Positions 37,172 to 59,500 are shown, counted from the stretch's first letter. The stretch: DNA of 64,000 nt from Ostreococcus lucimarinus (GCA_000092065.1 CP000583.1), one strand, 5' to 3'. Notes: generated by a model from the sequence alone, not told the origin. Program-made: numbers and translations.

Positions 37172-38485
37172 ATGCGCGTCCTGTCGCGCGTCGTCGCGCC
37201 CGCGCCGCTCGCGCGCGCGCGCGACGCCCGCGCGGCGTGCGACGCGCGACGACGCGCGGCGGCGGCGACGCGATCGACCGCGCGCGCGAACGACGGCGAC
37301 GACGCGCGACGACGCGCGGGCGACGCGAACGAACGGCGCGTGACGATGGAACGAAGCGCGATGAAGCGCGCGACGCGACGCGCGACGCACGTCGCGCGAG
37401 CGTCGAGCGCGGAGACGACGGATAAGCCGCTGGACCACGTGCTGGACAAGCTGCGCGCGCGAGGCAAGGACGCGGTGCAGGTGCTGATGCTGTTGAGCCT
37501 GTTCGCGTGCTGGTACGGGTTCAACATCGTGTTCAACATACATAACAAACAGATTTTGAAGAGCTTTCCGTACCCGGTGACGGTGACGCTGATCGAACTC
37601 GGCGTGGGGAGCGCGTTGATTTGCGCGATGTGGGCGAGCGGGGCGAAAAAGCCGCCGACGCTGACGAAGGAGATGCTGAAACCGATCGTGCCGTTGGCGG
37701 TGATTCACGCGGTTGGGAATTTGTTGACGAATGTTTCGCTTGGGAAGGTGGCGGTGTCGTTCACGCACACGATTAAGGCGATGGAACCGTTCTTTTCGGT
37801 GTTGCTCTCGGCGTTGTTCTTGGGGGATATTCCCTCGCTCGCCGTCGTCGGCGCGCTCGTGCCGGTTGTCGGCGGCGTCGCGCTCGCGTCCATGACGGAA
37901 GTCAGCTTTTGCTGGGCGGGCTTTTTGGCCGCCATGGGGTCGAACATCACGTTCCAGTCGCGAAATGTGCTGAGTAAGAAGATGATGGGGTTGTCGTCGA
38001 TCAAAGGAGCCATCGACAACATCAACTTGTTCAGCGTCATCACGATGTTGAGCTGCGTGGTGTGTCTTCCCATCGCCATCGGCCTTGAGGGTGTTCACTT
38101 CACCCCTTCCACTATAAGCGCGGTCGGCGTGAGCGTCCAAGAGTTGGCCAAGAGCTTGATGATTGCCGGTTTCTGCTTCCAAATGTACCAGCAAATCTCG
38201 TACATGATTCTTTCTCGCGTCAGCCCGGTGACGCACTCTGTCGGTAACTGCATGAAGCGTGTCACCGTCATCGTCGTCACGCTGCTGTACTTCAAGAACC
38301 CAGTTTCTCCGCTCAATATGGCGGGCACCGCTTTGGCCTTGAGCGGCGTGTTCTTGTATTCGAGAGCCAAGCGCGCTGAGGGAGACAAGAAAAAGGCGGC
38401 GGCGGCGACGCCGGCGTTCACTCGAAGCGACTCGGCGTACAATGATACGTTCCGCGCGACGACTGGCTTGAGCAACATCGAATAA
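37172..38485 (+). CDS. Plastidic triose-phosphate/phosphate translocator family (TPT/PPT/GPT type) with transit peptide
   Basis: The family hallmark is ...KVAVSFTHTIKAMEPFFSVLLSALFLG... together with ...NIVFNIHNKQILKSFPYP... The N-terminal 90 aa are R/A-rich and transit-peptide-like. ATG at 37172 (M244 of ORF 36443..38485). Confidence 0.85.
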   Translation: MRVLSRVVAPAPLARARDARAACDARRRAAAATRSTARANDGDDARRRAGDANERRVTMERSAMKRATRRATHVARASSAETTDKPLDHVLDKLRARGKDAVQVLMLLSLFACWYGFNIVFNIHNKQILKSFPYPVTVTLIELGVGSALICAMWASGAKKPPTLTKEMLKPIVPLAVIHAVGNLLTNVSLGKVAVSFTHTIKAMEPFFSVLLSALFLGDIPSLAVVGALVPVVGGVALASMTEVSFCWAGFLAAMGSNITFQSRNVLSKKMMGLSSIKGAIDNINLFSVITMLSCVVCLPIAIGLEGVHFTPSTISAVGVSVQELAKSLMIAGFCFQMYQQISYMILSRVSPVTHSVGNCMKRVTVIVVTLLYFKNPVSPLNMAGTALALSGVFLYSRAKRAEGDKKKAAAATPAFTRSDSAYNDTFRATTGLSNIE

Positions 38486-38669: not shown

Positions 38670-41600
38670 TCATACAGTTGGCGTCGTCGGGGTCGTCGGG
38701 GTCGCCGTCATGGGAGTCGAGTTTTTTGAGTTGGCTTTCGCCTTCAATCTTGCGACGTATTGATCGAGCAGCGCATTGATCTTTTGCTTGCGCGAGTCTG
38801 TAAGAAACGCGCTCGTGCCTTGTTCCGTGTTCTGGTCAAACTTCCTCGGGATCACAGTCATCACTTTAACCATGCTTTTTCGAACAATCGTTCTGAGTTG
38901 CGACTTGGTGAGGTCTTGAACGCTGAGCGTCGTCTTGATGAAGTGCAACACGCGTTGCGCGAGAAGCGTATCCGCCGCCACCTTTGGGAGCTTCGCTTTT
39001 GATGGCATTGTATTCTTTGAACACTCAGCTGGAGACACCGCAGAAGCGAGATCGGGACCGCTTTCAGGGGCGCTTTGCTTCTGCAACAAAGCTGCACGCA
39101 CATTTGAGTCAACCACCGGATCAGGGTTAGATTCAACCATCTCGGGCTTCGGCGGCGGCGGCGATGACGGTAAAAGAGTCGACGTTGGCAACTGAGCGCC
39201 TTCGCACTTCTTCTTGCACGCACGCTCGTGCGCGGCGAAGCCAGCGCCCTTCATCGACTTGTAAACCTGGCAGAACGAGCACGTTAGCATCTTCGCATCC
39301 ATGTCGCGCTTCTTCTTGCACGCACGCTCGTGCGCGGCGAAGCCAGCTCCCGGAGCGCCTGTGAAAGTTCTGCAGTACGAGCACGTGATCGGCTCCTTCG
39401 CGGGCGTTGAGCTCGGCGGCGGTTGCGTACGCGGAGCCGGCGGCGATGACGGTAAAGAAGTCGACGTTGGCAACTGAGCGCTTTCGCGCTTCTTCTTGCA
39501 CGCACGCTCGTGCGCGGCGAAGCCAGCTCCTGGCGCGCCTGTGAAAGTTCTGCAGTACGAGCACGTGATCGGCTCCTTCGCGGGCGTTGAGCTCGGCGGC
39601 GGTTGCGTACGCGGAGCCGGCGGCGATGACGGTAAAGAAGTCGACGTTGGCAACTGAGCGCTTTCGCGCTTCTTCTTGCACGCACGCTCGTGCGCGGCGA
39701 AGCCAGCTCCTGGCGCGCCTGTGAAAGTTCTGCAGTACGAGCACGTGATCGGCTCCTTCGCGGGCGTTGAGCTCGGCGGCGGTTGCGTACGCGGAGCCGG
39801 CGGCGATGACGGTAAAGAAGTCGACGTTGGCAACTGAGCGCTTTCGCGCTTCTTCTTGCACGCACGCTCGTGCGCGGCGAAGCCAGCTCCCGGAGCGCCT
39901 GTGAAAGTTCCGCAGTACGAGCACGTGATCGGCTCCTTCGCGGGCGTTGAGCTCGGCGGCGGTTGCGTACGCGGAGCCGGCGGCGATGACGGTAAAGAAG
40001 TCGACGTTGGCAACTGAGCGCTTTCGCGCTTCTTCTTGCACGCACGCTCGTGCGCGGCGAAGCCAGCGCCCTTCATCGACTTGTAAACCTGGCAGAACGA
40101 GCACGTTAGCATCTTCGCATCCATGTCGCGCTTCTTCTTGCACGCACGCTCGTGCGCGGCGAAGCCAGCTCCCGGCGCGCCTGTGAAAGTTCCGCAGTAC
40201 GAGCACGTGATCGGCTCCTTCGCGGGCGTTGAGCTCGGCGGCGGTTGCGTACGCGGAGCCGGCGGCGATGACGGTAAAGAAGTCGACGTTGGCAACTGAG
40301 CGCTTTCGCGCTTCTTCTTGCACGCACGCTCGTGCGCGGCGAAGCCAGCTCCCGGCGCGCCTGTGAAAGTTCTGCAGTACGAGCACGTGATCGGCTCCTT
40401 CGCGGGCGTTGAGCTCGGCGGCGGTTGCGTACGCGGAGCCGGCGGCGATGACGGTAAAGAAGTCGACGTTGGCAACTGAGCGCTTTCGCGCTTCTTCTTG
40501 CACGCACGCTCGTGCGCGGCGAAGCCAGCTCCCGGCGCGCCTGTGAAAGTTCTGCAGTACGAGCACGTGATCGGCTCCTTCGCGGGCGTTGAGCTCGGCG
40601 GCGGTTGCGTACGCGGAGCCGGCGGCGATGACGGTAAAGAAGTCGACGTTGGCAACTGAGCGCTTTCGCGCTTCTTCTTGCACGCACGCTCGTGCGCGGC
40701 GAAGCCAGCTCCCGGCGCGCCTGTGAAAGTTCTGCAGTACGAGCACGTGATCGGCTCCTTCGCGGGCGTTGAGCTCGGCGGCGGTTGCGTACGCGGAGCC
40801 GGCGGCGATGACGGTAAAGAAGTCGACGTTGGCAACTGAGCGCTTTCGCGCTTCTTCTTGCACGCACGCTCGTGCGCGGCGAAGCCAGCTCCCGGAGCGC
40901 CTGTGAAAGTTCTGCAGTACGAGCACGTGATCGTCTTCACATCCATCTCGTGCTTCTTCTGGCACGCGCGTTTGTGCGCAGCATACCCTGCGCCGCCGAA
41001 GCCCTCGTACTCATACACGTTGCAAAACACGCACCGCTTCAGGACCTTCTCAGTTACTTGCACCGGCTGGACCACTACGGGCGAGAACGTTCCTTGCTCG
41101 TGTTTTCGCTTGCACACACGCTCGTGCGCGGCGAACCCAGCGCCTTTTGCACTCGCGTAGACTTGACAGTGCGGACAAGTAAGTGTGTTCTTCTCCTTCT
41201 CGAGGCGCTTCTTGCACGCGCGCTCATGCGCGTAAAACCCGACACTTTTCACGGCTTCGTACGTGTGGCAATACGAACAAGTGAGCGTTTGCTTGCCTAA
41301 AGTCGCCTCAGCAGACAAGCAGGCTGGATCGTTCGGTATCGTAGTGGGTGCAATTTTCTCCAGAACTTTCCCCGGAAGCGCAGCGTGTGTCGACGTCGCC
41401 GGCGCTGGCACCGGCGCCGGCATGTCGACTGCGTCGCCGGGCGAGTTTGACTCGGAATTCCAATGCGCGATTGAAGTTTCATCGTCCGTAGAAGCATGTT
41501 TTACTTCGACTTCTGGCTGCGTCACTTCTTCATTGTCTTCTTCATTCGTCATCGCCACGTCTTCCGTCGGTGCGACGGCCTCCGTCTCCTCGTTGGTCGC

Positions 41601-42806
41601 GCGCTGCGTCTGCGTCACTTCTTCTTCCGCGGCGCCAAAAGTCTCTTCTTCCTTCTCGATCGTCTTCTTTTTCGGCACGCTGCTCGGGAACAAGAATTCG
41701 GCGCGAACTTCTGTGACTTGGGGCGAGTCTTCTTCTACGTCTGTCTCTGCGATTTCGTCATCCTCTTCGACTTCACCCACGTCTTGTGGCACCTCGATGT
41801 TGTCGTAGTCGTCTTCGGCGATGAAATCATCGACGACATCCTTCACCGCGGGCGCGATGGCGACTAAATCATCGTCCAGCAAACTCGGCGTGGGGTCGTA
41901 TTTGGGCTTGGGTTTCCTCTTTTGCCGCGGCTTCTTCACCTTCATCACCTGGTCGAATCCCGCCAAGTCACCCATGGGTTTGCGCTTCGAGCTCGGAAAC
42001 ATCATCGTAAGATCGAGCGCGGGTTCTTCGACGTGATCGCCCGCGCCCGGTGCGGCTTCCTCGACTTGATTCGCGCGCGCTCCTTCGTTCGCCTCCGCCG
42101 CGGTCGCCGTCGTCGTCGCGCCGCCCGCCGCCGTCGCCGTTCGCCGCTCGTCCTCGTCCTCGTCTTCGTCCGCCTCCTCCTCCTCTCGCACGAACCCCTC
42201 CACCAAGGCGTTGAAATCCATCGCATCGTCATCGTCCCCATCGACTAAATCATTCGCATTCTTCGTCGTCGTCTCGCCGTTCTTCTCGAAATCCACCACG
42301 ACGGTTTCCGTCTCCCTCGTCGCCGTCTCGCCGTCTCTCCCCTCCGTAGGCGCGCTCGCGAACAGCCGCTCCGCGATCTCCCTCGCGCGCACCACCGCGT
42401 CCATGGCGTCCTCGATCGTCATCCCTTCCGCGCCATCGTCGCTCCCTCGTCCCGTGAACGACGCCACCACCGCCTCGGCGTCGCCGTCTCGCGCGCCCCC
42501 GCGCGTCATCTCCTCCTTCACCCCTCGTTCGATCGCCGCGTCCGCGCGTCGTCGCGCCGCCTCGTGCGCCCGTATCGCCTCGTCCCGCGCCCGCTCGTAC
42601 GTCGCCCGCGCGTCGTCGCGCGCCGCGTCGTCGCCGCGCGCGTCCGCAGCCGTCGGACCCAAGAGAAATTCGAATCCGGCGGCGCGCGCGTGTCGCGCGA
42701 TCGCGATCGGCTCGAACGACGGCCCCTGGAGCCTGATGTACTTGCACACCAGCGCGATGTGCTTGGCGTGGTCCGCGCGCGCGGCGCTCGGCGAGCGCTC
42801 CGCCAT
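38670..42806 (-). CDS. Large nuclear-type protein with about 17 tandem C2HC zinc fingers (CxxC-x12-H-x3-C), an acidic N-terminal region and a C-terminal DEK_C-like domain
   Basis: Thirteen or more near-identical 60-aa units ESAQLPTSTSLPSSPPAPRTQPPPSSTPAKEPITCSYCRTFTGAPGAGFAAHERACKKKR plus divergent fingers (TCSYCHTYEAVKSVGFYAHERAC, LTCPHCQVYASAKGAGFAAHERVC). The C-terminus ...LLAQRVLHFIKTTLSVQDLTKSQLRTIVRKSMVKVMTVIP... is DEK_C-like. ATG at 42806 (M142); the upstream R/S-rich part overlaps DegP and was rejected. Confidence 0.6.
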   Translation of the reverse strand: MAERSPSAARADHAKHIALVCKYIRLQGPSFEPIAIARHARAAGFEFLLGPTAADARGDDAARDDARATYERARDEAIRAHEAARRRADAAIERGVKEEMTRGGARDGDAEAVVASFTGRGSDDGAEGMTIEDAMDAVVRAREIAERLFASAPTEGRDGETATRETETVVVDFEKNGETTTKNANDLVDGDDDDAMDFNALVEGFVREEEEADEDEDEDERRTATAAGGATTTATAAEANEGARANQVEEAAPGAGDHVEEPALDLTMMFPSSKRKPMGDLAGFDQVMKVKKPRQKRKPKPKYDPTPSLLDDDLVAIAPAVKDVVDDFIAEDDYDNIEVPQDVGEVEEDDEIAETDVEEDSPQVTEVRAEFLFPSSVPKKKTIEKEEETFGAAEEEVTQTQRATNEETEAVAPTEDVAMTNEEDNEEVTQPEVEVKHASTDDETSIAHWNSESNSPGDAVDMPAPVPAPATSTHAALPGKVLEKIAPTTIPNDPACLSAEATLGKQTLTCSYCHTYEAVKSVGFYAHERACKKRLEKEKNTLTCPHCQVYASAKGAGFAAHERVCKRKHEQGTFSPVVVQPVQVTEKVLKRCVFCNVYEYEGFGGAGYAAHKRACQKKHEMDVKTITCSYCRTFTGAPGAGFAAHERACKKKRESAQLPTSTSLPSSPPAPRTQPPPSSTPAKEPITCSYCRTFTGAPGAGFAAHERACKKKRESAQLPTSTSLPSSPPAPRTQPPPSSTPAKEPITCSYCRTFTGAPGAGFAAHERACKKKRESAQLPTSTSLPSSPPAPRTQPPPSSTPAKEPITCSYCRTFTGAPGAGFAAHERACKKKRESAQLPTSTSLPSSPPAPRTQPPPSSTPAKEPITCSYCGTFTGAPGAGFAAHERACKKKRDMDAKMLTCSFCQVYKSMKGAGFAAHERACKKKRESAQLPTSTSLPSSPPAPRTQPPPSSTPAKEPITCSYCGTFTGAPGAGFAAHERACKKKRESAQLPTSTSLPSSPPAPRTQPPPSSTPAKEPITCSYCRTFTGAPGAGFAAHERACKKKRESAQLPTSTSLPSSPPAPRTQPPPSSTPAKEPITCSYCRTFTGAPGAGFAAHERACKKKRESAQLPTSTSLPSSPPAPRTQPPPSSTPAKEPITCSYCRTFTGAPGAGFAAHERACKKKRDMDAKMLTCSFCQVYKSMKGAGFAAHERACKKKCEGAQLPTSTLLPSSPPPPKPEMVESNPDPVVDSNVRAALLQKQSAPESGPDLASAVSPAECSKNTMPSKAKLPKVAADTLLAQRVLHFIKTTLSVQDLTKSQLRTIVRKSMVKVMTVIPRKFDQNTEQGTSAFLTDSRKQKINALLDQYVARLKAKANSKNSTPMTATPTTPTTPTV
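39200..40960. repeat. Tandem array of near-identical 180-bp coding repeats, about 9 units plus two 100-102-bp variant units, forming an 822-bp higher-order repeat x2
   Basis: The unit cttcttcttgcacgcacgctcgtgcgcggcgaagccagctcc...gttggcaactgagcgctttcgcg recurs with period 180 at about 39491, 39671, 39851, 40031, 40313, 40493, 40673 and 40853. Variant units at 39311 and 40133 are spaced 822 bp apart. The ORF track shows two identical 253-aa minus-strand ORFs, 39284..40045 and 40106..40867. Confidence 0.9.
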
Positions 42807-42847: not shown

Positions 42848-44398
42848 ATGGCGCGCGCGATGCGCGTCGCGACGACGCGCGCGCGAGAGACGCGCGCGAG
42901 GTGCGAGCGCGCGCCGAGCCGGCGCGCGCGCGCGCGCGCGGCGACGCGCGCGAGAAATCGCGCGACGCGCGACGACGGGGCGGATGACGTGTTCGGTGCC
43001 GAGGAGAGATTCGATGACGACGACGCGCGCGGGACGATCGGACGCGCCGTCGCGCGCGTCGCGGCGTGCGCGGTGACGCTGAACGCGCTCGGCGCGGACG
43101 CGGCGCTGATGGAGGGGACGGAGGTCGGTTGGACGAGGACGAGGACGACGGCGACGACGACGACGACGAACGACGCGCGCGACGACGACGCGTCGGCGCC
43201 GGAGGGGCGGTATAGGACGTACATCGCACCGGATGTCCCGCTCGGGGACGCCGCGGTGCGGTTGCCGATGCCAGCGCGCGAAGCCAAGAGAGACGGCGCG
43301 TACAAGACGGTGCAGGCGACGCAGCGGTTTACGGATGGCGAGCGCGAGACGGTGCGATTGTTTAATAACGCCAAGGCGAGCGTCGTGTACATCACCAATG
43401 TCGCCGTGCGCAGAGATGCGTTCACGTTGAATCTCACGGAACAGCCGCAAGGGGCGGGGAGCGGCATCGTCTGGGACGACAAGGGGCACATCGTCACCAA
43501 CTACCACGTCATCGACAAGGCGAATCAGTTGAAGGTGTCGTTTTTGCCGAATAAAGGCGGGGTGCAGAATCAGAAGACGTACGACGCCGCAATCGTTGGG
43601 TTCGACGACGATAAGGACATCGCCGTGCTGCAGGTGAACGACCCAGAGGCGCTGCGGGAGATGAAACCGCTCGTCATCGGAACGAGCGGAGACTCCATGG
43701 TGGGCCAGCGTGTCTTCGCGATCGGGAACCCGTTTGGGCTCGATCACACGCTCACAACCGGCATCATCAGCGGCCTCGGACGAGAGATTCAAAGCGGTAA
43801 CACCGGGCGCCCAATCGACGGCATCATTCAAACGGACGCGGCGATCAATCCCGGCAACTCGGGGGGCCCTTTGTTGAATTCGTCGGGACAGCTCATCGGC
43901 ATCAACACCGCGATTTATTCCGCGTCCGGGACGTCCAGCGGCGTGGGATTCGCCCTCCCGAGCGACATGGTGAGCGGTATCGTCGATCAAATCATTCGTT
44001 ACGGTCGCGTGACGCGTCCGATTCTCGGCGTCTCCTTCGCCCCCGACGGCGCGCTCGACCAGCTCGGCCTCGGCGGCGTGTTGGTGCTCGACGCTCGCGC
44101 GGGCGGTCCCGCCGCGCGCGCCGGCGTCCGCAGCACCACGCGCGACGAATCCGGCCGTCTCATCCTCGGCGACATCATCATCGAGCTCGCGGGCGAGCAA
44201 ATTCAAGACTCCAGCGATTTATACCGCACCCTCGACAAGCTCTCCGTCGGCGAAACCGTCGACGTGACGCTCTTGCGAGGCGTCGACAAAGTCTCCGCCC
44301 GCGTCACCCTCGACGACGTCAAGGACATGAAACCTCCGACCGCGTCCACGATCGTCATCCCGATGCGCACCAAGAAGTCTCCAAACTCGCCGTACTAG
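42848..44398 (+). CDS. DEGP: Deg/HtrA-family serine protease with PDZ domain (DegP-like, organelle-targeted)
   Basis: His region VTNYHVIDKANQLKVSF, Asp region DIAVLQV and catalytic Ser GNSGGPLLNSSGQLIGINTAIYS. The PDZ domain is ...GVLVLDARAGGPAARAGVRSTTRDESGRLILGDIIIELAGEQIQDSSDLYRTL... First ATG in frame is 42848 (the ORF-track start 42818 is GTG). The N-terminal 130 aa look like a transit peptide. Confidence 0.85.
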   Translation: MARAMRVATTRARETRARCERAPSRRARARAATRARNRATRDDGADDVFGAEERFDDDDARGTIGRAVARVAACAVTLNALGADAALMEGTEVGWTRTRTTATTTTTNDARDDDASAPEGRYRTYIAPDVPLGDAAVRLPMPAREAKRDGAYKTVQATQRFTDGERETVRLFNNAKASVVYITNVAVRRDAFTLNLTEQPQGAGSGIVWDDKGHIVTNYHVIDKANQLKVSFLPNKGGVQNQKTYDAAIVGFDDDKDIAVLQVNDPEALREMKPLVIGTSGDSMVGQRVFAIGNPFGLDHTLTTGIISGLGREIQSGNTGRPIDGIIQTDAAINPGNSGGPLLNSSGQLIGINTAIYSASGTSSGVGFALPSDMVSGIVDQIIRYGRVTRPILGVSFAPDGALDQLGLGGVLVLDARAGGPAARAGVRSTTRDESGRLILGDIIIELAGEQIQDSSDLYRTLDKLSVGETVDVTLLRGVDKVSARVTLDDVKDMKPPTASTIVIPMRTKKSPNSPY

Positions 44399-44458: not shown

Positions 44459-46474
44459 ATGCCCGACCGATGGCCTCCCGCGCTGGAGATCCCGCGCGCG
44501 CTCAATGACGACCCCGCGTTCCACGCCGCGGCGCCGGACGCGTACGTGTGCGCGCTCACGCGCGAGGTGATGAAGAATCCCGCCGTCGTCGGACGCACGG
44601 GACGGAGCTACGAGCGCGCGGCGATCGACGCGTGGATCGCGCGCCACGGGCGCGATCCCGTCGCGACGAGCGTCAAAGTGACGCGCGAGGACGCCGCGCC
44701 GAATCGCGCGGTGCGGGCGTCGATCGAGCGGTACGTCGCGCGCGAGACGGCGAGGCGCGCGCGAGGGGCGGCGACGGCGAACGAAGGCGCGAACGAAGAC
44801 GCGAACGAAGACGCGAACGAAGACGCGAACGAGACGGACGACGAGGAAGACGATGAGGAAGACGAGACGAGCGATGGGGAAGGAGAGGCGAAGGAATCGG
44901 GCGGGACGGCGGTGAACTGGCGCGCGAGAGTGGAGACGGCGACGCGCGAGACGGCGACGCGCGAGACGGCGGAGACGAGAAAGGTGCGCAGATATTTGTT
45001 TCCGCGGCGACGCGTCGACGTCGTGAGGGCTGAGTTTCTCGTGACGTCAGTGACGTATCCACAGCGCGCCGATGAGCCCGACGGGAAGTTTTTCAGGTTT
45101 AAAATGGAAGACTTGACGAAAATCGTCGGCGATTGGGCGGGCGAGGATTTGGAGGCGTACAAAAAGGGTGAGGTTAAAGACGGTCAAGGCGCGTCGTTCG
45201 TCGTGAGACGCACGGATAAGGATGGGAACGTTAAAGGTACGAAAACAGTGTGCGTCTGGGGTGGGCCGAAAGGACAAGGTGTTGGACGCTGGAACCCGGC
45301 GGTTCGCGCAAAGGCGGGCGACTGGGCTGTCGGCGATAAAGTCACTTTGATGAATTACAGCGAAGCGCTCGCGATGCCACCGCGGACGTTTCCACTATCT
45401 ATCAAAGAGTACAAAATACACTCACCCACGGGCTGGAACCTCCCCGCGAACGCTATCCGTTTCGGCCAAGCTGGTTTGATCGGGCACTGGTGGAAGACGC
45501 TCGACGTAGAGTTCGTGTTGGATGACTCAAACGTAGGTACGCGAGTGTACGGCGTTCACACCGATGCGCCGTATGAAACTCTCAAATTTGAAGTCCAAGC
45601 TCTTCGCTCTGACGGACGGTGGCACAAAGTTCGCTTAAGCTCGAAGAAAGTACCTTGGGGACGCACGTTTAAGCGTCCGGTTGATGACGCTACGTCCATT
45701 CGCGTGACGTGGCCAGATACTGATTTGCACAAGTTACCTCTCAGTGCTCACCGTAGTGGCGAAGGTTTACACGCCAACATCGTCGGTTCTACGACTGATA
45801 TCGACATATTATCCGTGGTTCACCCCACGGCAGGGGCTGACGGTAAATATTTCCGCTTCGACCCCGCAGCCATGGCGGCGGCGCGCGGCGGTGCGCGTGA
45901 CTGGGAAGGGACGTATACTTGCTATGTGCTTCGCACTGGCGTCCGAGATAAAGTGACGTTCAAACATGGACCGCTCGGCAAATCTGCCTCGAAGACTTTA
46001 TATCGACACGTCGAGTCCGACGATGAAGATACGAAGCCAAAAAAGTCCTTTTTAGCTACCGTCGCGGGCAAAGGGCGCAAGTTTATTCGCTTCGGCAAGT
46101 CACGCAGCGAAATAGAGGCGGGAGAGAACGACGACGTCTCCGAAGATGATGACGCGGAGACTGGCGAAGAAGTTGTCGCCGACGACGCTGACACGAATGA
46201 AGACGTTGAGAAAGAAGAGCATGAACTCGTGCAAGCACTCGGTATTGGATGCTATTCCACCGGCGCTCGCCCGGGAGACTGGCGCGTCGGCGACGTCATC
46301 TTGCTCAAGCGCTACGTCCTTCAGCCCGGCGTCGTGGAGCCCTCGCGACCAGCCGCATCAACACGCAAAGATGGATACGAAGAGGCGTCAAAAACAGACG
46401 AGTGGTTCCGGGTCTACCACCCGGACCCGATCGAACCCAATCAAGTCGACGAAGTCGTCATTCCCGACACCTAG
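44459..46474 (+). CDS. U-box E3 ubiquitin-ligase-like protein with a large uncharacterised C-terminal region
   Basis: The U-box is PDAYVCALTREVMKNPAVVGRTGRSYERAAIDAWIARHGRDPVATSVKVTREDAAPNRAVRASIERYV. It is followed by an acidic NEGANEDANEDANEDANETDDEEDDEEDE linker and roughly 480 aa with no recognisable domain. Confidence 0.6.
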   Translation: MPDRWPPALEIPRALNDDPAFHAAAPDAYVCALTREVMKNPAVVGRTGRSYERAAIDAWIARHGRDPVATSVKVTREDAAPNRAVRASIERYVARETARRARGAATANEGANEDANEDANEDANETDDEEDDEEDETSDGEGEAKESGGTAVNWRARVETATRETATRETAETRKVRRYLFPRRRVDVVRAEFLVTSVTYPQRADEPDGKFFRFKMEDLTKIVGDWAGEDLEAYKKGEVKDGQGASFVVRRTDKDGNVKGTKTVCVWGGPKGQGVGRWNPAVRAKAGDWAVGDKVTLMNYSEALAMPPRTFPLSIKEYKIHSPTGWNLPANAIRFGQAGLIGHWWKTLDVEFVLDDSNVGTRVYGVHTDAPYETLKFEVQALRSDGRWHKVRLSSKKVPWGRTFKRPVDDATSIRVTWPDTDLHKLPLSAHRSGEGLHANIVGSTTDIDILSVVHPTAGADGKYFRFDPAAMAAARGGARDWEGTYTCYVLRTGVRDKVTFKHGPLGKSASKTLYRHVESDDEDTKPKKSFLATVAGKGRKFIRFGKSRSEIEAGENDDVSEDDDAETGEEVVADDADTNEDVEKEEHELVQALGIGCYSTGARPGDWRVGDVILLKRYVLQPGVVEPSRPAASTRKDGYEEASKTDEWFRVYHPDPIEPNQVDEVVIPDT

Positions 46475-54928: not shown

Positions 54929-56269
54929 CTACGTATCTTCCGAAATCGAAAGCCACTGCGTGAAGATCGCTTTTTTGCCGGAGACTACGGGTTGCGCCTC
55001 GTGCAGCGATCGCATCGCCTCTTGTCCGTTTTCTCCCACGTTCCAAAACAAGATGGCTCGCCCGCGTTTCGGGAACACTCGAATCCCAAGCGTCGTCGAA
55101 TCGCACCCACAAAGCGGCACACACTTCGGAAAGAACGTCGCCCCGCCTTCTTCAGGCTCTTGAAGATAGCACATGAACGTCATCGATCTTTTGAGACTGC
55201 CCGCTCTGTTGTCGTAATGCGCCGTATATCGCTCAGTTGGACCGTACTGAACTATTTGCATCGGTTCGTGTTGATACATGACCTTGACATTTTTTCGTCG
55301 CTCGACGATCAACGGCAGACGAATCGCGGCTTGAATCCTGCGCTCGATTTCGAGAACCAAATCGTCGTGCGCCCGAGCCCCGGTGAGAAAAGTAGACGTC
55401 GAAGTCCGACCTTCCGAAAGTTTCCCGTCCGTCACGCGCGATCGCTGCATACTTGGACGCGCGATCTCAATCAATTGATCCCCCTCTTCTTCGCTCAAGA
55501 AATCTTCGAGCACGAACAAGAGACAGTCGTTTGACAGAACGCGAACGCTCGACGCGACTTGGGGCGGCGGCTTCGATCGGTGTCGCGAGACTCGCAACTC
55601 GCTCATCCAAACCTCGACGACGAATTCGTCGTCGAGGTTTCCGAGCGCGTGCAAGTCGTCGGCAAGATTGAACACGTGCTTGATTCCCCACATATCACCC
55701 TCGCGGTCGAACCTGCGATCGAAGAAAGTCTCAAAGTGCCGCTCGTCGTTCGCCGCGCCGATGAAGGTCACGCTCAACGCCGCCTCCACCGCGTGCGCGC
55801 GCGCCGCATCGCGCGACCTCTGCACGTACACCGACACCGAATCAGCGACGCCATCGTCACCCGCGCGCATCACGAATCGCCATCCAATCTTCGTTCGCTT
55901 CCCGTCGCACACGAAGGCTTGAAACTCGGGAGATCGCCGTTCCGCCTCCGCCGCCGTCGGACGCGCCACTCGCCATCGCACCCGATCCCCTCCCTCGCGT
56001 CCATCTTCATCGTATTCCACCACCGCTCGCAGCTTCCCGTCCCCTCGCGCGCTCTCCCGCGCCGCGTCCGATCGCGCCGCGTCCGATCGCGCCGGCGCGC
56101 AATCGACCGCGCCGCGCGTCACGACGAGACACCGCTCGCCCCTCGACGGCACGTCCACCCCTCCCCGCTCCCGTCGTCGCCCCGACCGCGTCCGCCCGAG
56201 TCCGCCCGTCGACGCGCTCGCCGCGATGTCCCTCGCGCGCGCGTCCCGCGTCGACATTCCCGCCCCCAT
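54929..56269 (-). CDS. Prolyl 4-hydroxylase-type 2OG-Fe(II) oxygenase domain protein with an N-terminal MATH/TRAF-like domain and an N-myristoylation motif
   Basis: The P4Hc domain is ...HYDNRAG...RSMTFMCYLQEPEEGGATFFP...GRAILFWN...EAQPVVSGKKAIFTQW. The MATH-like block is ...FQAFVCDGKRTKIGWRFVMRAG...DMWGIKHVFNLADDLHALGNLDDEFVVEVWMSE. MGAGMST has Gly2 and Ser6. ATG at 56269. Confidence 0.6.
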   Translation of the reverse strand: MGAGMSTRDARARDIAASASTGGLGRTRSGRRRERGGVDVPSRGERCLVVTRGAVDCAPARSDAARSDAARESARGDGKLRAVVEYDEDGREGGDRVRWRVARPTAAEAERRSPEFQAFVCDGKRTKIGWRFVMRAGDDGVADSVSVYVQRSRDAARAHAVEAALSVTFIGAANDERHFETFFDRRFDREGDMWGIKHVFNLADDLHALGNLDDEFVVEVWMSELRVSRHRSKPPPQVASSVRVLSNDCLLFVLEDFLSEEEGDQLIEIARPSMQRSRVTDGKLSEGRTSTSTFLTGARAHDDLVLEIERRIQAAIRLPLIVERRKNVKVMYQHEPMQIVQYGPTERYTAHYDNRAGSLKRSMTFMCYLQEPEEGGATFFPKCVPLCGCDSTTLGIRVFPKRGRAILFWNVGENGQEAMRSLHEAQPVVSGKKAIFTQWLSISEDT

Positions 56270-56575
56270 CCCGCGCGACGCGCGTCCTCGCGCGAGACCG
56301 AGACCGACTTATTTCGTCCGATCGCGCGCCGATCGCGCGAATCGTCGTCGCCCGCGCCCGCGCCCGCGCGCGCCGTCGCGTCGTCGTCGCGCTCGGATCG
56401 CGCGCCGCGTTTTTTTCGCGCGCGCGCGTCGGTCTTCGCGCCGCGAATCCGCGCGCGCGCGTCGCGATCTCGCGCCGCGCGCGCCTCGGATGCGTCAACG
56501 TCGAGCGTCGAACTCGTCGGTTTGTATTCCGCGTCGACGATCGAGGGCGACCGCGGCACAGTCGCGCGCGAAGGA

Positions 56576-59500
56576 ATGGCGACCGAAACGGACGAGCGCG
56601 CGTCGATCGAGCGCGCGCTGACGTCGCTCGCGCTGACGGACGACGCGGCGCTGGAGCGCGTGCTCGAAAAGCTGCTGCCGAGCGCGATCGACGCGCTCGC
56701 GACGACGCATCCGAACAATGTCGCGAAAATCATGGATCTGCTGAGACACATCAATAAGCGCGTGAACGCGACGACGACGATCGGGTTGCCGCTGGAGAGG
56801 ATGGTGGACGCGTATTTGACGACGACGAACGCGATGGTGCGGAATTTTGCGCTGGTGTACGCGGAGAAGGCGTTTGAGAGGGCGGACGCGGAGACGCGGG
56901 AGATTCAAATCGCGCGAGCGTGTCGAGGGGCGTCGAGACGGTCGAGTGAACAGGCGGATATGGTGTTTCGAATGGCGATGCAGGCGCTGGGGGAGCTTTC
57001 GACGAGAGATCCGAGGCGCGATGTGGAATTTTTGAGCGATGATGACGATCGGAAGTTGTTTTTGAGACGCGCGAGAGATTTTTTCGCGTACTCGCCGAAC
57101 GCCGTGGGAACGAGCGCGAGGACGACACCAAATCGTTTGGAGGCGCATTTATCGGCGTTGGCGGGGGCGTCGATCGGGGTTGAAGGAGCACCGGAGGGAG
57201 CGTTGCGAGCGGCGGCGGAAGCACAGCGAGAAGACGCCGAGAGGAGCGTCGAGGCGCCGACGTTGAGCGCGCCGCCGAGCCTGTCGCCGAGCGCGGTGGA
57301 ACGGATTTTAGGGAAAGGGAAAGCGCCACCTACGCCGGTGGCGTTAGGTAAGCGAAAGTTAAAGCTACTTGAATACATAGCGAGCGCGGAGGTGCTCGAT
57401 CCCGTGCCAGATATCGATATGGACGACGCGGGCGTCGACGATGGCGTCGAGAAGGAGCGCGAGACAAAGAGTAGATTCTTAGTGAGTGGGGCGGAAATGC
57501 TCACGCATTGTCTCATCGCGTCGTGTGATGGTGATCATGAAGTATCCAAACGTGGCGAAGAATTACTCAAGCGACGATGTACGTGGGAGACGAACAAGCC
57601 GATTGTCAACTTGGACGACGGGGCAACGACGAGCGAATTATTCCAACTCTTCCTCGGTTCATCGCTGGACGTGCCGGTGGAGTCTCGCATCTTGCCCGCC
57701 TCGCCGGCGGTGAAATTAAAAATCATGAATTTGCTCACGCGATCCATGGCGGCGGCTGACGCGTTCCCGAAAAATCTCGAGACGGTGAAAATGTGCCTGT
57801 ACGGCGACGGTACGACGACACGATTGAAGGCGTGCGGCATGCAGTTTACCGTATGGATGCTGACTCACGCGACGAGTAAGGAATTACTCGCGTTTGCCCC
57901 TTCGTTAATGAATGGTATGCTCGAAATTTTAGATTCGCGCACCGACGGCTCGAACGAGGGAGATCAGACTGTGACTTTTGCGCAAGAAACTTTGCGCGGA
58001 TTTTGCTATCAAGCACTTTCGCAGCTCGCCGAGCGCGACAAAGTGAGCGTGAATCGAGACGTGTTGCTTGCCGAGCGAGTTTTCGACGCGTTAGAAAGCG
58101 AACCAGATGGCGTGAAATCCTACGTGCAAGAGGCGGCGCGAACGCTAGTTTCGGCGTATCGCGATTCGCCGTCGACGTACGTACAAACGCGAATGGAAGA
58201 ATTGATTTTGAGTGCCATCGAGGACAATGATAACAAGGTCAAGCGTCTCGTCGGTGCGCAATGGGCGACTGAAATGTTTCCGTTCTCACACGTCCCGTCG
58301 CGGTATGCCAGCATTTTAGCCTCGGGGGACGCCAAGCACGAGATGCAAACGCTGGGCCGACGAGGTTTGCAACCGAGCGCGACTCGCAAGACAAAGGACG
58401 ACGCGGTTTTACACATCGAGCGCTGGGACGGGTGCGATCGAGAAGTCACCGCGCGCTCGTGGGTGGATGAGAACGCGATGTTTGTGGATTTAACAAGCGA
58501 CCATTATCGATACATGGAATATCTGGCGTTCTGTCGAGGCGAGACGCCTCGCGTGCTAGAAAAGCACCCACCAGCGTCTTCGTTACTTCGGTATCTCGTC
58601 ATCAAACTTCCTGGCTTGAACGTCGACCCCGCACTACACGCGGCTTTGCTTTTGCCTGAGAACGCCATGATAAGTGCACTGGATTTCGTGAACGCGTGTT
58701 TAAAGAGCGATTATTCCAAGTCGAGAAAGTTGGAGGCGAACGACGTGAAGCTCTACCTCAACTTTTTGAACCGGTGCCTCGTCAAATCGTCGGGACCAGC
58801 CCTCGCGAGCGAAGCCTTACGTAGTTTCATAGACTTGCTCGAGCGTGAACCAGCGTTACTCAGCGAAAAGGCTACCGCGGATGCGATTCTAGTGCGTCTG
58901 AGACACTTCGTGTCTCACACAGATGCAGAGACTCGTCGGCGCGCCGCCAAACTTTGCGGCGTTCTTGTTGGTAATCTTGAGGCCGATGCGAGGGTACCTT
59001 TTATGGATGAATTTCTGTCGCTGTGTAAAGGAGACGAACGTGGCGCTCGTCTGGAGCACCAAGAGGGCGCATTAAGCGCGACTGGCTACATCGTAGGTTC
59101 AGGAAAGATTCCGGATGTCGACGCGCTGCGCGCAATTCAAACCTTTGTCGACTTGGCAAAGAAAGTAGGCAAAGGACAAAGTGCCGAAGCTAACTTGGCG
59201 AGTGTCGCGGCGGAAGCGATCGGTCACGCAGGACTACGTAAGCCCTTGCACGCTGATATCATCGAGGACGCGCTCGACGCAGTGTGTGGCGTTCTGCAAA
59301 ACACAGATCCACACGTCGCCAAGCTAGGCGCTCGAGCCGCTGGACACATCATGCTCACGGATGCAAGTGAAAGTACCGCATCTGCGCTTTTACCGCGGCT
59401 TCTTGCGATGTGCGAGGTGAAACACGATGACACACAGTTCGCCATAGGTGAGGCGGTTGCGTGTGCGTGGGGGGGCGTCGATGTCGACGCCGATCGCGTG

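What the first reader, a model, noticed from the sequence alone, without database searches (positions are those of the whole stretch)
38670..42806. Roughly 1380-aa nuclear protein built from about 17 C2HC zinc fingers; 13 are encoded by near-identical 180-bp DNA repeats plus an 822-bp higher-order repeat
The DNA units are more than 97% identical over about 1.7 kb (39200-40960). They encode (PTSTSLPSSPPAPRTQPPPSSTPAKEP)-ITCSYCRTFTGAPGAGFAAHERACKKKR modules, with older, divergent fingers on both sides and a DEK_C-like domain at the C-terminus. Identity at synonymous sites means recent amplification or ongoing gene conversion. Such arrays are prone to collapse or expansion in assemblies, so the true copy number is uncertain. 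The CxxC-x12-H-x3-C spacing is not the classic C2H2, and the nucleic-acid target of the protein is unknown.
Basis: seen in the sequence. Interest (0 to 1): 0.55.

Follow-up and report, generated by a model that had tools for sequence, protein, structure and literature searches.

The report
Recently expanded zinc-finger array in alga
An uncharacterised gene of the marine picoalga Ostreococcus lucimarinus carries a recently expanded run of 14 unusual zinc fingers, inserted into a conserved protein that otherwise looks like a splicing/RNA-polymerase adaptor; the repeat is real and evolutionarily interesting, but not a new kind of biology.

Summary
The repeat is real, but several details in the finding are wrong. 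The window is the Ostreococcus lucimarinus CCE9901 reference. RefSeq XP_001416846.1 ('predicted protein') is an exact substring of the 1378-aa ORF at 38670-42806 (minus strand).

There are 14 fingers, not 17. Three divergent fingers lie on the N-terminal side only. Eleven homogenised fingers follow, of two types (R and Q), ordered RRRRRQRRRRQ. R units are 180 bp with 0-4 mismatches. The 822-bp higher-order repeat (4x180+102) is 98.9% identical. Spacing is CX2CX13HX3C, not x12.

Syntenic orthologues in other Mamiellales-like genomes have the SURP and SRI-like domains but no fingers. The array is therefore a lineage-specific gain.

Array structure differs between assemblies, and each clade's copies share clade-specific substitutions. 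That indicates concerted evolution and probable copy-number polymorphism.

The finger is a predicted beta-beta-alpha C2HC variant with no curated family of its own. Similar single fingers end giant-virus proteins that carry an Mrr-like nuclease domain.

Function is inferred: a co-transcriptional adaptor with multivalent, low-specificity nucleic-acid binding.

The parts
38670..42806 (-). Complete coding sequence, 1378 aa plus stop, no introns needed. Ostreococcus lucimarinus CCE9901 'predicted protein' (RefSeq XP_001416846.1 begins 99 codons further in).
   Evidence: The ORF and its translation. P0019 is an exact substring of the window protein from residue 100. Every full-length metagenome gene call for this protein starts at MAERSP.
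42654..42770 (-). N-terminal SURP module (aa 13-51, HAKHIALVCKYIRLQGPSFEPIAI...GFEFLLGP). The RefSeq gene model omits it.
   Evidence: A profile of five orthologous N-termini hit only SURP domains in PDB sequences: SF3A1, SF4/SUGP1 and SFRS8, E 0.028-1. Pfam Surp matched 4 of 5 members, best E 1.9e-6, and matched full-length P0034 at E 1.4e-3. The window's own copy gives no Pfam hit by itself.
41859..42017 (-). Conserved basic motif (aa 264-316, LDLTMMFPSSKRKPMGDLAGFDQVMKVKKPRQKRKPKPKYDPTPSLLDDDLVA) inside a long acidic region (aa 1-500, pI 4.3). It resembles a nuclear localisation signal.
   Evidence: The motif is conserved in the finger-less orthologues P0034, P0037, P0038 and P0039. Composition. 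The localisation role is inferred.
41355..41381 (-). Single remaining 'ALPGK' motif (aa 476-484). Orthologues have 1-5 copies of phi-LPG(K/R)PV here, and some have AT-hook-like RGRP motifs.
   Evidence: Motif scan of the orthologues. Pfam AT_hook matched one orthologue at E 0.005.
41214..41279 (-). Divergent finger a (CSYCHTYEAVKSVGFYAHERAC).
   Evidence: Regex scan with coordinates. It differs from R and Q by about 30 of 90 nt. It is conserved in the sister clade.
41112..41177 (-). Divergent finger b (CPHCQVYASAKGAGFAAHERVC).
40962..41033 (-). Divergent finger c (CVFCNVYEYEGFGGAGYAAHKRAC; x15 between the second Cys and the His).
39156..40937 (-). Homogenised finger array of 11 fingers in the order R R R R R Q R R R R Q. 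Long units are 180 bp (a finger plus a 38-aa Pro/Ser/Thr-rich linker containing TPAK). Short units are 102 bp (a finger plus a 12-aa linker). The array has pI 9.8.
   Evidence: TRF, the unit mismatch matrix, the finger list and the composition.
39159..40884 (-). Higher-order repeat with an 822-bp period (4x180+102), about 2.1 copies, 98.9% identical.
   Evidence: Offset-822 comparison: 10 mismatches in 903 nt. TRF also reports periods of 462 and 282 over the same array.
38733..38984 (-). C-terminal helical domain (aa 1275-1358) with a Set2 SRI-like three-helix fold.

Best explanation
The gene encodes a Mamiellales-specific adaptor protein. It has an N-terminal SURP module, which in known splicing factors docks helical peptides of partner proteins. 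It has a long acidic disordered region with a basic motif that resembles a nuclear localisation signal. It ends in a three-helix domain with the fold of the Set2 SRI domain, which in known cases binds the phosphorylated tail (CTD) of RNA polymerase II.

In the O. lucimarinus lineage and its sister clade, a block of C2HC zinc fingers (CX2CX13HX3C followed by KKK[R/H]) was gained between these conserved parts. The fingers are predicted to fold as beta-beta-alpha.

Two unit types were then amplified and kept nearly identical: R with a long Pro/Ser/Thr linker, and Q reached through a short linker. The likely mechanism is unequal exchange and gene conversion in 180-bp and 822-bp (or, in the sister clade, 282-bp) register. 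This gives concerted evolution and probably different copy numbers between strains.

The most likely role of the array is multivalent, low-specificity binding of nucleic acid, RNA or DNA. That would tether a co-transcriptional RNA-processing adaptor to its substrate, taking over or extending the role of the LPGRPV and AT-hook-like motifs that finger-less orthologues carry at the same place.

Shown: the anatomy, the lineage-specific gain, the concerted evolution, and the differences in array structure between assemblies. Supported by profile or fold matches only: the SURP and SRI-like assignments. Inferred: nuclear location, CTD and splicing-factor binding, and nucleic-acid binding by the fingers.
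For: - Identity and repeat anatomy.
- Organism and gene: P0019 (XP_001416846.1, O. lucimarinus CCE9901) is an exact substring of the window protein.
- Restricted family: an exhaustive phmmer search of 1.84 billion representatives gave only 14 hits.
- Lineage-specific gain: orthologues P0034, P0037, P0038 and P0039 share the N-terminus, the central motifs and the C-terminal domain but have no fingers. P0037, P0038 and P0039 sit in the same gene order: FAD_binding_3, DegP, this gene, TPT, Steroid_dh.
- SURP.
- SRI-like fold.
- Finger fold: the AF2 model has pLDDT 85, and each finger shows two short strands and a helix.
- Link to classical fingers: related C2HC fingers occur together with Pfam zf-C2H2 matches in P0043 and P0045 and share an array with C2H2 fingers in L021.
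- Nucleic-acid context: the array has pI 9.8. Single fingers with the same spacing and an H-x-R-x-C-K-K-K tail end giant-virus proteins that carry a sub-threshold but consistent Mrr_cat nuclease match. Finger-less orthologues have AT-hook-like motifs at the equivalent position.
- Concerted evolution.
- Array differences: the reference has RRRRRQRRRRQ; L001, with 99.4-99.8% identical flanks, has eight R then Q; the sister-clade locus L002 has a 281-282-bp R+Q period.
Against: - No experiment or expression data bears on function.
- The window's own N-terminus gives no Pfam Surp hit by itself, and the PDB profile hits have E 0.028-1.
- Residues at the classical DNA-reading helix positions are Pro/Lys, Ala, Gly and Ala. 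Base-specific recognition in the classical mode is therefore unlikely, and protein binding is just as possible.
- The giant-virus similarity scores 17-23 bits per finger, which is not significant against a large database.
- Copy-number differences could partly reflect assembly error in the Sanger reference or in the other assemblies.
Confidence: 0.45

Rival explanations
1. The protein is a sequence-specific DNA-binding transcription factor of the poly-zinc-finger kind. Its rapidly evolving tandem array reads a long or repeated DNA motif, as in PRDM9 or KRAB-ZNF proteins.
For: The fingers are tandem and each is encoded by one minisatellite-like DNA unit. The predicted fold is beta-beta-alpha. 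The array is basic. Array structure differs between strains and clades.
Against: The fingers are nearly identical to each other, and the few differences (R/G after the second Cys, K/E in the tail) do not lie at helix contact positions. Helix positions -1, 2, 3 and 6 are P/K, A, G and A. Linkers are 12 or 38 residues rather than the 7-residue TGEKP type, so adjacent fingers cannot read contiguous triplets. The conserved flanking domains are SURP and SRI-like, which are RNA-processing and polymerase-associated modules.
Confidence: 0.15
2. The fingers are protein-binding modules, for example ubiquitin-binding fingers of the UBZ/NEMO type or partner-binding fingers of the FOG/IDD type. The array is then a multivalent protein scaffold.
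For: C2HC beta-beta-alpha fingers in NEMO, RAD18, FOG and plant IDD proteins bind proteins (background knowledge; IDD C2HC finger patterns are listed in PMC11610476). RAD18 UBZ and TAX1BP1 UBZ1+2 appear among the fold-search hits, though not significantly. The helix face is Gly/Ala-rich. A lineage-specific U-box gene lies two genes away.
Against: The fold matches are far below significance. The spacing differs: x13 here against x11-12 in UBZ4 and NEMO. The strongly basic KKKR tail and the nuclease context of the viral relatives fit nucleic acid better. The proximity of the U-box gene is only circumstantial.
Confidence: 0.2
3. The higher-order structure and the copy number in the window are assembly artefacts of the Sanger reference. 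The true gene has fewer, or a different number of, repeats.
For: Two independent chromosome-scale JGI contigs from nearly identical genomes have eight R units then Q and no internal Q. Other metagenome gene calls give 4-7 fingers, which shows how easily this array collapses.
Against: The two 822-bp copies are not identical. Ten differences, including CCA/CCG and GCT/GCG markers, distinguish the blocks, which would not be expected from an artefactual duplication. P0016 and P0018 themselves differ at four repeat residues, so real variation exists in the population. The sister clade has its own R+Q higher-order structure. Whatever the exact count, the array itself exists.
Confidence: 0.2

Closest known systems
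PRDM9 / KRAB-ZNF type zinc-finger arrays encoded by minisatellite-like repeats
   Same: There is one finger per tandem DNA unit. Units are homogenised by unequal exchange and gene conversion. Array length and order differ between close relatives.
   Different: Those are C2H2 fingers in 84-bp units with TGEKP linkers, and their variation is concentrated at DNA-contact residues. Here the fingers are C2HC with x13 spacing. Units are 180 and 102 bp with 38- or 12-residue linkers. Copies are almost invariant, and the contact positions are Gly/Ala.
SURP-domain proteins that also bind the RNA polymerase II tail (CHERP, U2SURP/SR140)
   Same: They combine a SURP module with a domain associated with the polymerase II CTD in one long, largely disordered protein.
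   Different: Those proteins use a CID/RPR domain and have RRM or G-patch domains. This family has an SRI-like three-helix domain instead. It has no RRM or G-patch and is detectable only in Mamiellales-like genomes.
Set2/SETD2 SRI domain (PF08236; PDB 2c5z, 2a7o)
   Different: There is no SET domain. Sequence identity is 11-16%. CTD binding is untested.
C2HC variants of the classical beta-beta-alpha finger (FOG, NEMO/UBZ, plant IDD ZF3/ZF4, ZC2HC1/PF13913) and CHHC fingers (GTSF1, U11-48K)
   Same: The ligand set or order is similar (Cys-Cys-His-Cys in the C2HC group), as is the predicted fold. GTSF1 and U11-48K CHHC fingers are the top Foldseek hits, though not significant.
   Different: The spacing is x13 with a conserved G-x-G-[FLI]-x-x-H-[EQ]-[RK]-x-C-K-K motif. 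No Pfam model of these families matches the window protein.
DUF7501 (PF24333), small haloarchaeal proteins such as HVO_1252
   Same: It is the only Pfam family above its cut-off for the whole protein: 92 bits over 9 stretches.
   Different: Each finger covers only profile positions 5-31 of 58 and scores 18.8 bits, below the cut-off of 27. The hit therefore reflects summed zinc-ligand similarity. The family is archaeal, uncharacterised and single-domain (PMC12091111).
Giant-virus (GVMAG) proteins with an Mrr-like nuclease domain and a C-terminal finger
   Same: They have the same CX2CX13HX3C spacing and an H-[EQ]-R-x-C-K-K-K tail. They score 17-23 bits against an HMM built only from Ostreococcus fingers, higher than any other non-Ostreococcus finger.
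   Different: They have a single finger at the end of an unrelated protein in AT-rich viral genomes (20-33% GC). The similarity is not statistically secure.

Membership tests
Classical C2H2 zinc finger (PF00096) | Ligand pattern C-x2-4-C-x12-H-x3-5-H | tested here: not met
   All 14 fingers are C-x2-C-x13-H-x3-C, or x15 in finger c, and the last ligand is Cys.
Classical C2H2 zinc finger (PF00096) | Beta-beta-alpha fold | tested here: met
   In the AF2 model of an R+Q pair (pLDDT 85), each finger has two short strands followed by a helix. This is a prediction only.
Classical C2H2 zinc finger (PF00096) | Pfam model match above the gathering score | tested here: not met
   PF00096 gives no hit. 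zf-C2H2_10 scores 20.9, below its cut-off of 26.2. Distant relatives P0043 and P0045 do match PF00096.
Classical C2H2 zinc finger (PF00096) | Short conserved TGEKP-type linker in tandem arrays | tested here: not met
   Linkers are 12 aa (KKKRDMDAKMLT) or 38 aa and Pro/Ser/Thr-rich.
DUF7501 (PF24333) | Whole-protein score above the gathering cut-off | tested here: met
   92.4 bits against a cut-off of 27, summed over 9 stretches.
DUF7501 (PF24333) | A single domain covers the profile and passes the cut-off | tested here: not met
   One finger scores 18.8 bits and covers profile positions 8-32 of 58.
SURP module (PF01805) | Sequence match to the Surp profile or to SURP structures | tested here: met
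   Pfam Surp matches 4 of 5 orthologous N-termini, best E 1.9e-6. All 7 PDB hits of the N-terminal profile are SURP domains. The window's own copy alone gives no hit, so its membership rests on orthology.
SURP module (PF01805) | Binds a partner helix of a splicing factor | not testable with these tools
   This needs binding experiments.
SRI domain (PF08236) | Three-helix bundle fold like Set2 SRI | tested here: met
SRI domain (PF08236) | Sequence match to the Pfam SRI profile | tested here: inconclusive
   One of 6 orthologues matches at E 0.014. The window copy gives no hit.
SRI domain (PF08236) | Binds Ser2/Ser5-phosphorylated polymerase II CTD | not testable with these tools
   This needs peptide-binding assays.
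DEK_C (PF08766) | Sequence or fold match to the DEK C-terminal domain | tested here: not met
PRDM9-like minisatellite finger arrays | Tandem DNA units each encoding one finger, homogenised within a genome | tested here: met
PRDM9-like minisatellite finger arrays | Variation between units concentrated at DNA-contact helix positions | tested here: not met
   The only amino-acid variation among R units is R/G after the second Cys and E/K in the tail. The helix is invariant.
UBZ4 / NEMO-type C2HC ubiquitin-binding fingers | C-x2-C-x11-12-H-x3-C spacing and structural similarity | tested here: inconclusive
zf-C2HC_2 (PF13913, ZC2HC1 type) | Pfam model match | tested here: not met
   The window protein gives no hit. 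P0043 scores 18.5, below the cut-off of 27.

The most novel reading that the evidence does not exclude
The finger module was captured from a giant virus or a mobile element. The closest single fingers end Mrr-like nuclease proteins of giant viruses. It was then inserted into a polymerase/splicing adaptor and is now turning over rapidly by unequal exchange. On this reading, array length and composition are a fast-evolving trait of Ostreococcus populations, possibly linked to host-virus conflict or to lineage-specific control of co-transcriptional RNA processing.
Probability: 0.1. Interest if true: 0.7.

Novelty: new variant of a known kind. Interest (0 to 1): 0.4.

Why it matters
- **Domain gain:** the locus is a clean, dated example of a gain. 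A conserved syntenic gene acquires a zinc-finger block in one picoalgal lineage and then expands it by concerted evolution. Different array structures are seen in genomes whose flanks are more than 99% identical.
- **Strain marker:** the array could help type Ostreococcus populations in metagenomes. It is also a warning, because short-read assemblies collapse it to 4-7 fingers.
- **Annotation:** the RefSeq gene model omits the SURP module. The protein can be re-described as SURP + C2HC array + SRI-like rather than 'predicted protein'.
- **Uncurated finger class:** the CX2CX13HX3C-KKK finger is shared with protist and giant-virus proteins and has no curated family of its own.

None of this overturns current understanding.

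Tried and rejected
- **Whole-protein word-index search.** It returned only relatives with at least 78% identity, probably because low-complexity words swamped the candidate list.
- **C-terminal domain search.** It returned only near-identical fragments.
- **Word-index search with the finger-pair alignment A3.** 999 candidates were collected and none scored. This was a dead end.
- **PDB sequence searches with single sequences and with the C-terminal profile.** They returned nothing meaningful: NC2/Dr1 and GapR at E>0.2 for the fingers, one non-significant hit (E 1.2) for the N-terminus, and nothing for the C-terminus.
- **DUF7501 as the finger's family.** Rejected as a real assignment. It passes only by summing nine partial matches, and a single finger is below the cut-off.
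- **GapR_DNA-bd, Zn_ribbon_10, Pyridox_oxase_2 and the other sub-threshold Pfam hits.** Treated as noise.
- **DEK_C.** No support.
- **Literature searches.** For DUF7501, the spacing formula, and Ostreococcus zinc-finger repeats, I found nothing about this protein.
- **Alternative-frame ORFs across the array** (39133-40965, 39284-40045 and 40106-40867, minus strand). These are by-products of a stop-free repeat, not genes.
- **Other fingers of this type in the window.** None was found in any of the six frames.

Full report
**What is in the sequence**

- The minus strand carries one uninterrupted ORF. Its first ATG is at 42806 and its stop is at 38670-38672, giving 1378 aa.
- Tandem Repeats Finder reports 180-bp arrays at 39304-40071 (98% matches) and 40126-40933 (99%), plus composite periods of 282 and 462 bp.
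- A regex scan finds 13 fingers of the form C-x2-C-x13-H-x3-C. A fourteenth (finger c) has x15.
- In order, the fingers are a, b, c (divergent), then R R R R R Q R R R R Q.
- R is CSYC[R/G]TFTGAPGAGFAAHERAC. Q is CSFCQVYKSMKGAGFAAHERAC.
- Finger-to-finger spacing is 180 bp where a 38-residue Pro/Ser/Thr-rich linker follows. It is 102 bp where the 12-residue linker KKKRDMDAKMLT follows.
- The seven complete R units differ by 0-4 of 180 nt.
- The block of four long units plus one short unit is 822 bp. It repeats with 10 mismatches in 903 nt, 98.9% identity.
- R and Q share an identical 3' half, but differ overall by about 23 of 90 nt.

The count of 17 fingers, '13 near-identical units', the x12 spacing and 'divergent fingers on both sides' do not.

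**Which organism and gene**

- An exact look-up shows that RefSeq XP_001416846.1 (UniProt A4RTU6) is 'predicted protein' of Ostreococcus lucimarinus CCE9901. It has the same finger architecture and is an exact substring of the window protein from residue 100. The window is therefore the CCE9901 reference.
- The neighbours are ordinary genes. A triose-phosphate-translocator-family gene lies downstream and a DegP-like protease lies divergently upstream. Further out are U-box, FAD-monooxygenase, MatE, GNL3-like GTPase and ECM29 genes.

**The conserved frame of the protein**

- An exhaustive phmmer search used a repeat-collapsed version against 1.84 billion representative proteins. It found only 14 hits, so the family is narrow.
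- Four longer hits (P0034, P0037, P0038, P0039; 38-51% identity) share several parts with the window protein:
  - the N-terminus;
  - the acidic region;
  - the motif LDLTMMFPSSKRKPxGDLGGF..VMKVKK..KPKY.PTP.L.DDLVA;
  - ETDVEDSPQVTE;
  - the C-terminal domain.
- A profile of the N-termini hits only SURP domains among PDB sequences: SF3A1, SF4/SUGP1 and SFRS8. Pfam Surp matches four of the five N-termini, best E 1.9e-6.
- The RefSeq model starts after this module and so omits it.
- Pfam SRI matches one orthologue at E 0.014.
- DEK_C is not detected by sequence or by fold.

**The fingers are a lineage-specific gain**

- The four orthologues contain no finger at all and have only 3-5 cysteines each.
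- At the equivalent place they carry 1-5 copies of a short motif, phi-LPG(K/R)PV. Several also have AT-hook-like RGRP motifs (Pfam AT_hook E 0.005 in one).
- The O. lucimarinus protein keeps one ALPGK motif just before finger a.
- P0037, P0038 and P0039 are positional orthologues. Each sits between the divergent DegP gene and the convergent TPT gene, with FAD_binding_3 and Steroid_dh beyond.
- The finger block was therefore gained in the lineage leading to O. lucimarinus and to a sister clade with about 90% nucleotide identity (L002, P0013, P0029). That clade also has fingers a and b, a c-like finger, and R and Q types.

**How the array evolves**

- In the sister clade every R copy reads CSHCGTFKGAPG... 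and every Q copy reads CSHCRVYKSMKG.... In O. lucimarinus every copy has the lucimarinus residues.
- Mean mismatches per 90 nt are 1.7 among R copies within the reference and 0.6 within the sister clade. Between the clades the figure is 6.7.
- This is the signature of concerted evolution, by unequal exchange or gene conversion.
- Array order also differs:
  - The reference has RRRRRQRRRRQ.
  - L001 is a 957-kb JGI contig whose flanks are 99.4-99.8% identical to the window. It has eight R then Q, 12 fingers in all.
  - A second JGI assembly (P0018) has the same count as L001 but differs at four repeat residues.
  - The sister clade has a 281-282-bp R+Q period.
- Other metagenome gene calls give 864, 924 or 984 aa proteins with 1-3 R units, most likely collapsed.
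- The two 822-bp copies in the reference are distinguished by ten sites. This argues against a simple artefactual duplication, but only spanning long reads can settle the count.

**What kind of finger**

- Pfam's only above-threshold family is DUF7501, an uncharacterised haloarchaeal small-protein family. The score is a sum over nine partial matches, and one finger alone scores 18.8 bits against a cut-off of 27. I do not treat this as membership.
- An AF2 model of an R+Q pair (pLDDT 85) gives each finger two short strands and a helix. The first helix runs on through the short linker into the next finger.
- Distant sequence relatives place the finger among C2HC variants of the classical finger. 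These are metagenome proteins of unidentified origin:
  - P0043 and P0045 have fingers with the same or x12 spacing, and both proteins also match Pfam zf-C2H2.
  - L021 has C2H2 and C2HC fingers in one array.
  - L019 is an AT-rich locus (40% GC), probably from a protist, encoding a protein with at least nine dispersed fingers.
- The closest single fingers outside Ostreococcus end 400-500 aa proteins on giant-virus metagenome contigs and similar AT-rich contigs:
  - They score 17-23 bits against an Ostreococcus-only HMM.
  - They share the x13 spacing and an H-[EQ]-R-x-C-K-K-K tail.
  - The proteins have a consistent sub-threshold Mrr_cat nuclease match and a D...(E/D)xK motif.
  - This is a lead, not a statistically secure relationship.

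**Likely function**

- The conserved frame pairs a SURP module with an SRI-like domain. This resembles CHERP and U2SURP, which combine SURP with a polymerase-tail-binding domain (background knowledge), and suggests a nuclear co-transcriptional RNA-processing adaptor.
- The array is basic (pI 9.8), while the N-terminal half is acidic (pI 4.3).
- Each finger is followed by KKK[R/H]. Each long linker contains a TPAK site, which fits the S/T-P-x-K kinase consensus (sequence).
- If the helix is numbered as in classical fingers, the base-reading positions are P/K, A, G and A, and they do not vary between copies. The linkers are also far from the TGEKP type.
- I therefore favour multivalent, low-specificity nucleic-acid binding, to RNA or DNA. 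This would replace or extend the AT-hook-like motifs of the finger-less orthologues.
- Protein binding (UBZ/FOG-like) is the main rival. Sequence-specific DNA reading is less likely. All of this is inference.

**Verdict**

The finding is real and ordinary in kind: a tandem zinc-finger array evolving in concert. Several things are new at the level of detail. The finger is an uncurated C2HC variant. The host architecture has not been described. The domain gain is clean and syntenic. There is probable copy-number polymorphism, and there is a gene-model correction.

Noticed in passing
window 42510-42806 (minus strand): RefSeq XP_001416846.1 starts at an internal Met (MTRGG, residue 100) and so omits the conserved SURP module. 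All full-length metagenome gene calls, and the conservation in orthologues, support the ATG at 42806. That ATG lies only about 50 bp from the start of the divergent DegP-like gene, which implies a very short shared promoter region.
   Followed up: partly
window 44459-46474 (+); L001 2323-4338; L002 3029-4219: A 671-aa U-box protein gene lies between the DegP-like and FAD-monooxygenase genes in O. lucimarinus and its sister clade. It is absent from that position in the three finger-less orthologous loci (L007, L008, L010). The same neighbourhood has therefore gained a second lineage-specific element.
   Followed up: partly
L003 227-1561, L004 1555-3009, L005 1930-3132, L006 14-1345; also L020, L022, L023, L024: A family of 400-500 aa proteins on AT-rich giant-virus (GVMAG) and similar metagenome contigs. 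Each has an Mrr-like PD-(D/E)xK nuclease motif and a single C-terminal CX2CX13HX3C-KKK finger. No curated family covers the finger.
   Followed up: partly
P0034, P0037, P0038, P0039, P0041 (orthologues); window 41355-41381: Finger-less orthologues carry 1-5 copies of a short conserved motif, phi-LPG(K/R)PV, of unknown function. Some also carry AT-hook-like RGRP motifs. One ALPGK copy survives in the window protein.
   Followed up: partly
window 37185-37388 and 42851-42971: Imperfect CG-rich low-complexity repeats (CG dinucleotide and CGCGCGACGA-like units). They lie in the 5' regions of the TPT-family gene and of the DegP-like gene, and encode Arg/Ala-rich N-terminal extensions that are probably transit peptides.
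   Followed up: no
window 39133-40965, 39284-40045 and 40106-40867 (minus strand, other frames): Long stop-free ORFs of 253-610 aa in alternative frames across the repeat. They are by-products of the repeat, but one metagenome 'protein' (P0036) is a frameshifted chimera of these frames, which shows how the array confuses gene callers.
   Followed up: partly
L019 1-2922: An AT-rich (40% GC) metagenome contig, probably from a protist, encodes a protein of more than 970 aa. It has at least nine dispersed fingers of the related type C.[FY]C...G.GIAIHEKSCK.NP, separated by low-complexity acidic and basic stretches.
   Followed up: no
window 55559-62416 (+): A 2285-aa ORF encodes an ECM29-like proteasome adaptor (ECM29_N E 5e-114). 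It is an ordinary housekeeping gene, noted only for context.
   Followed up: no
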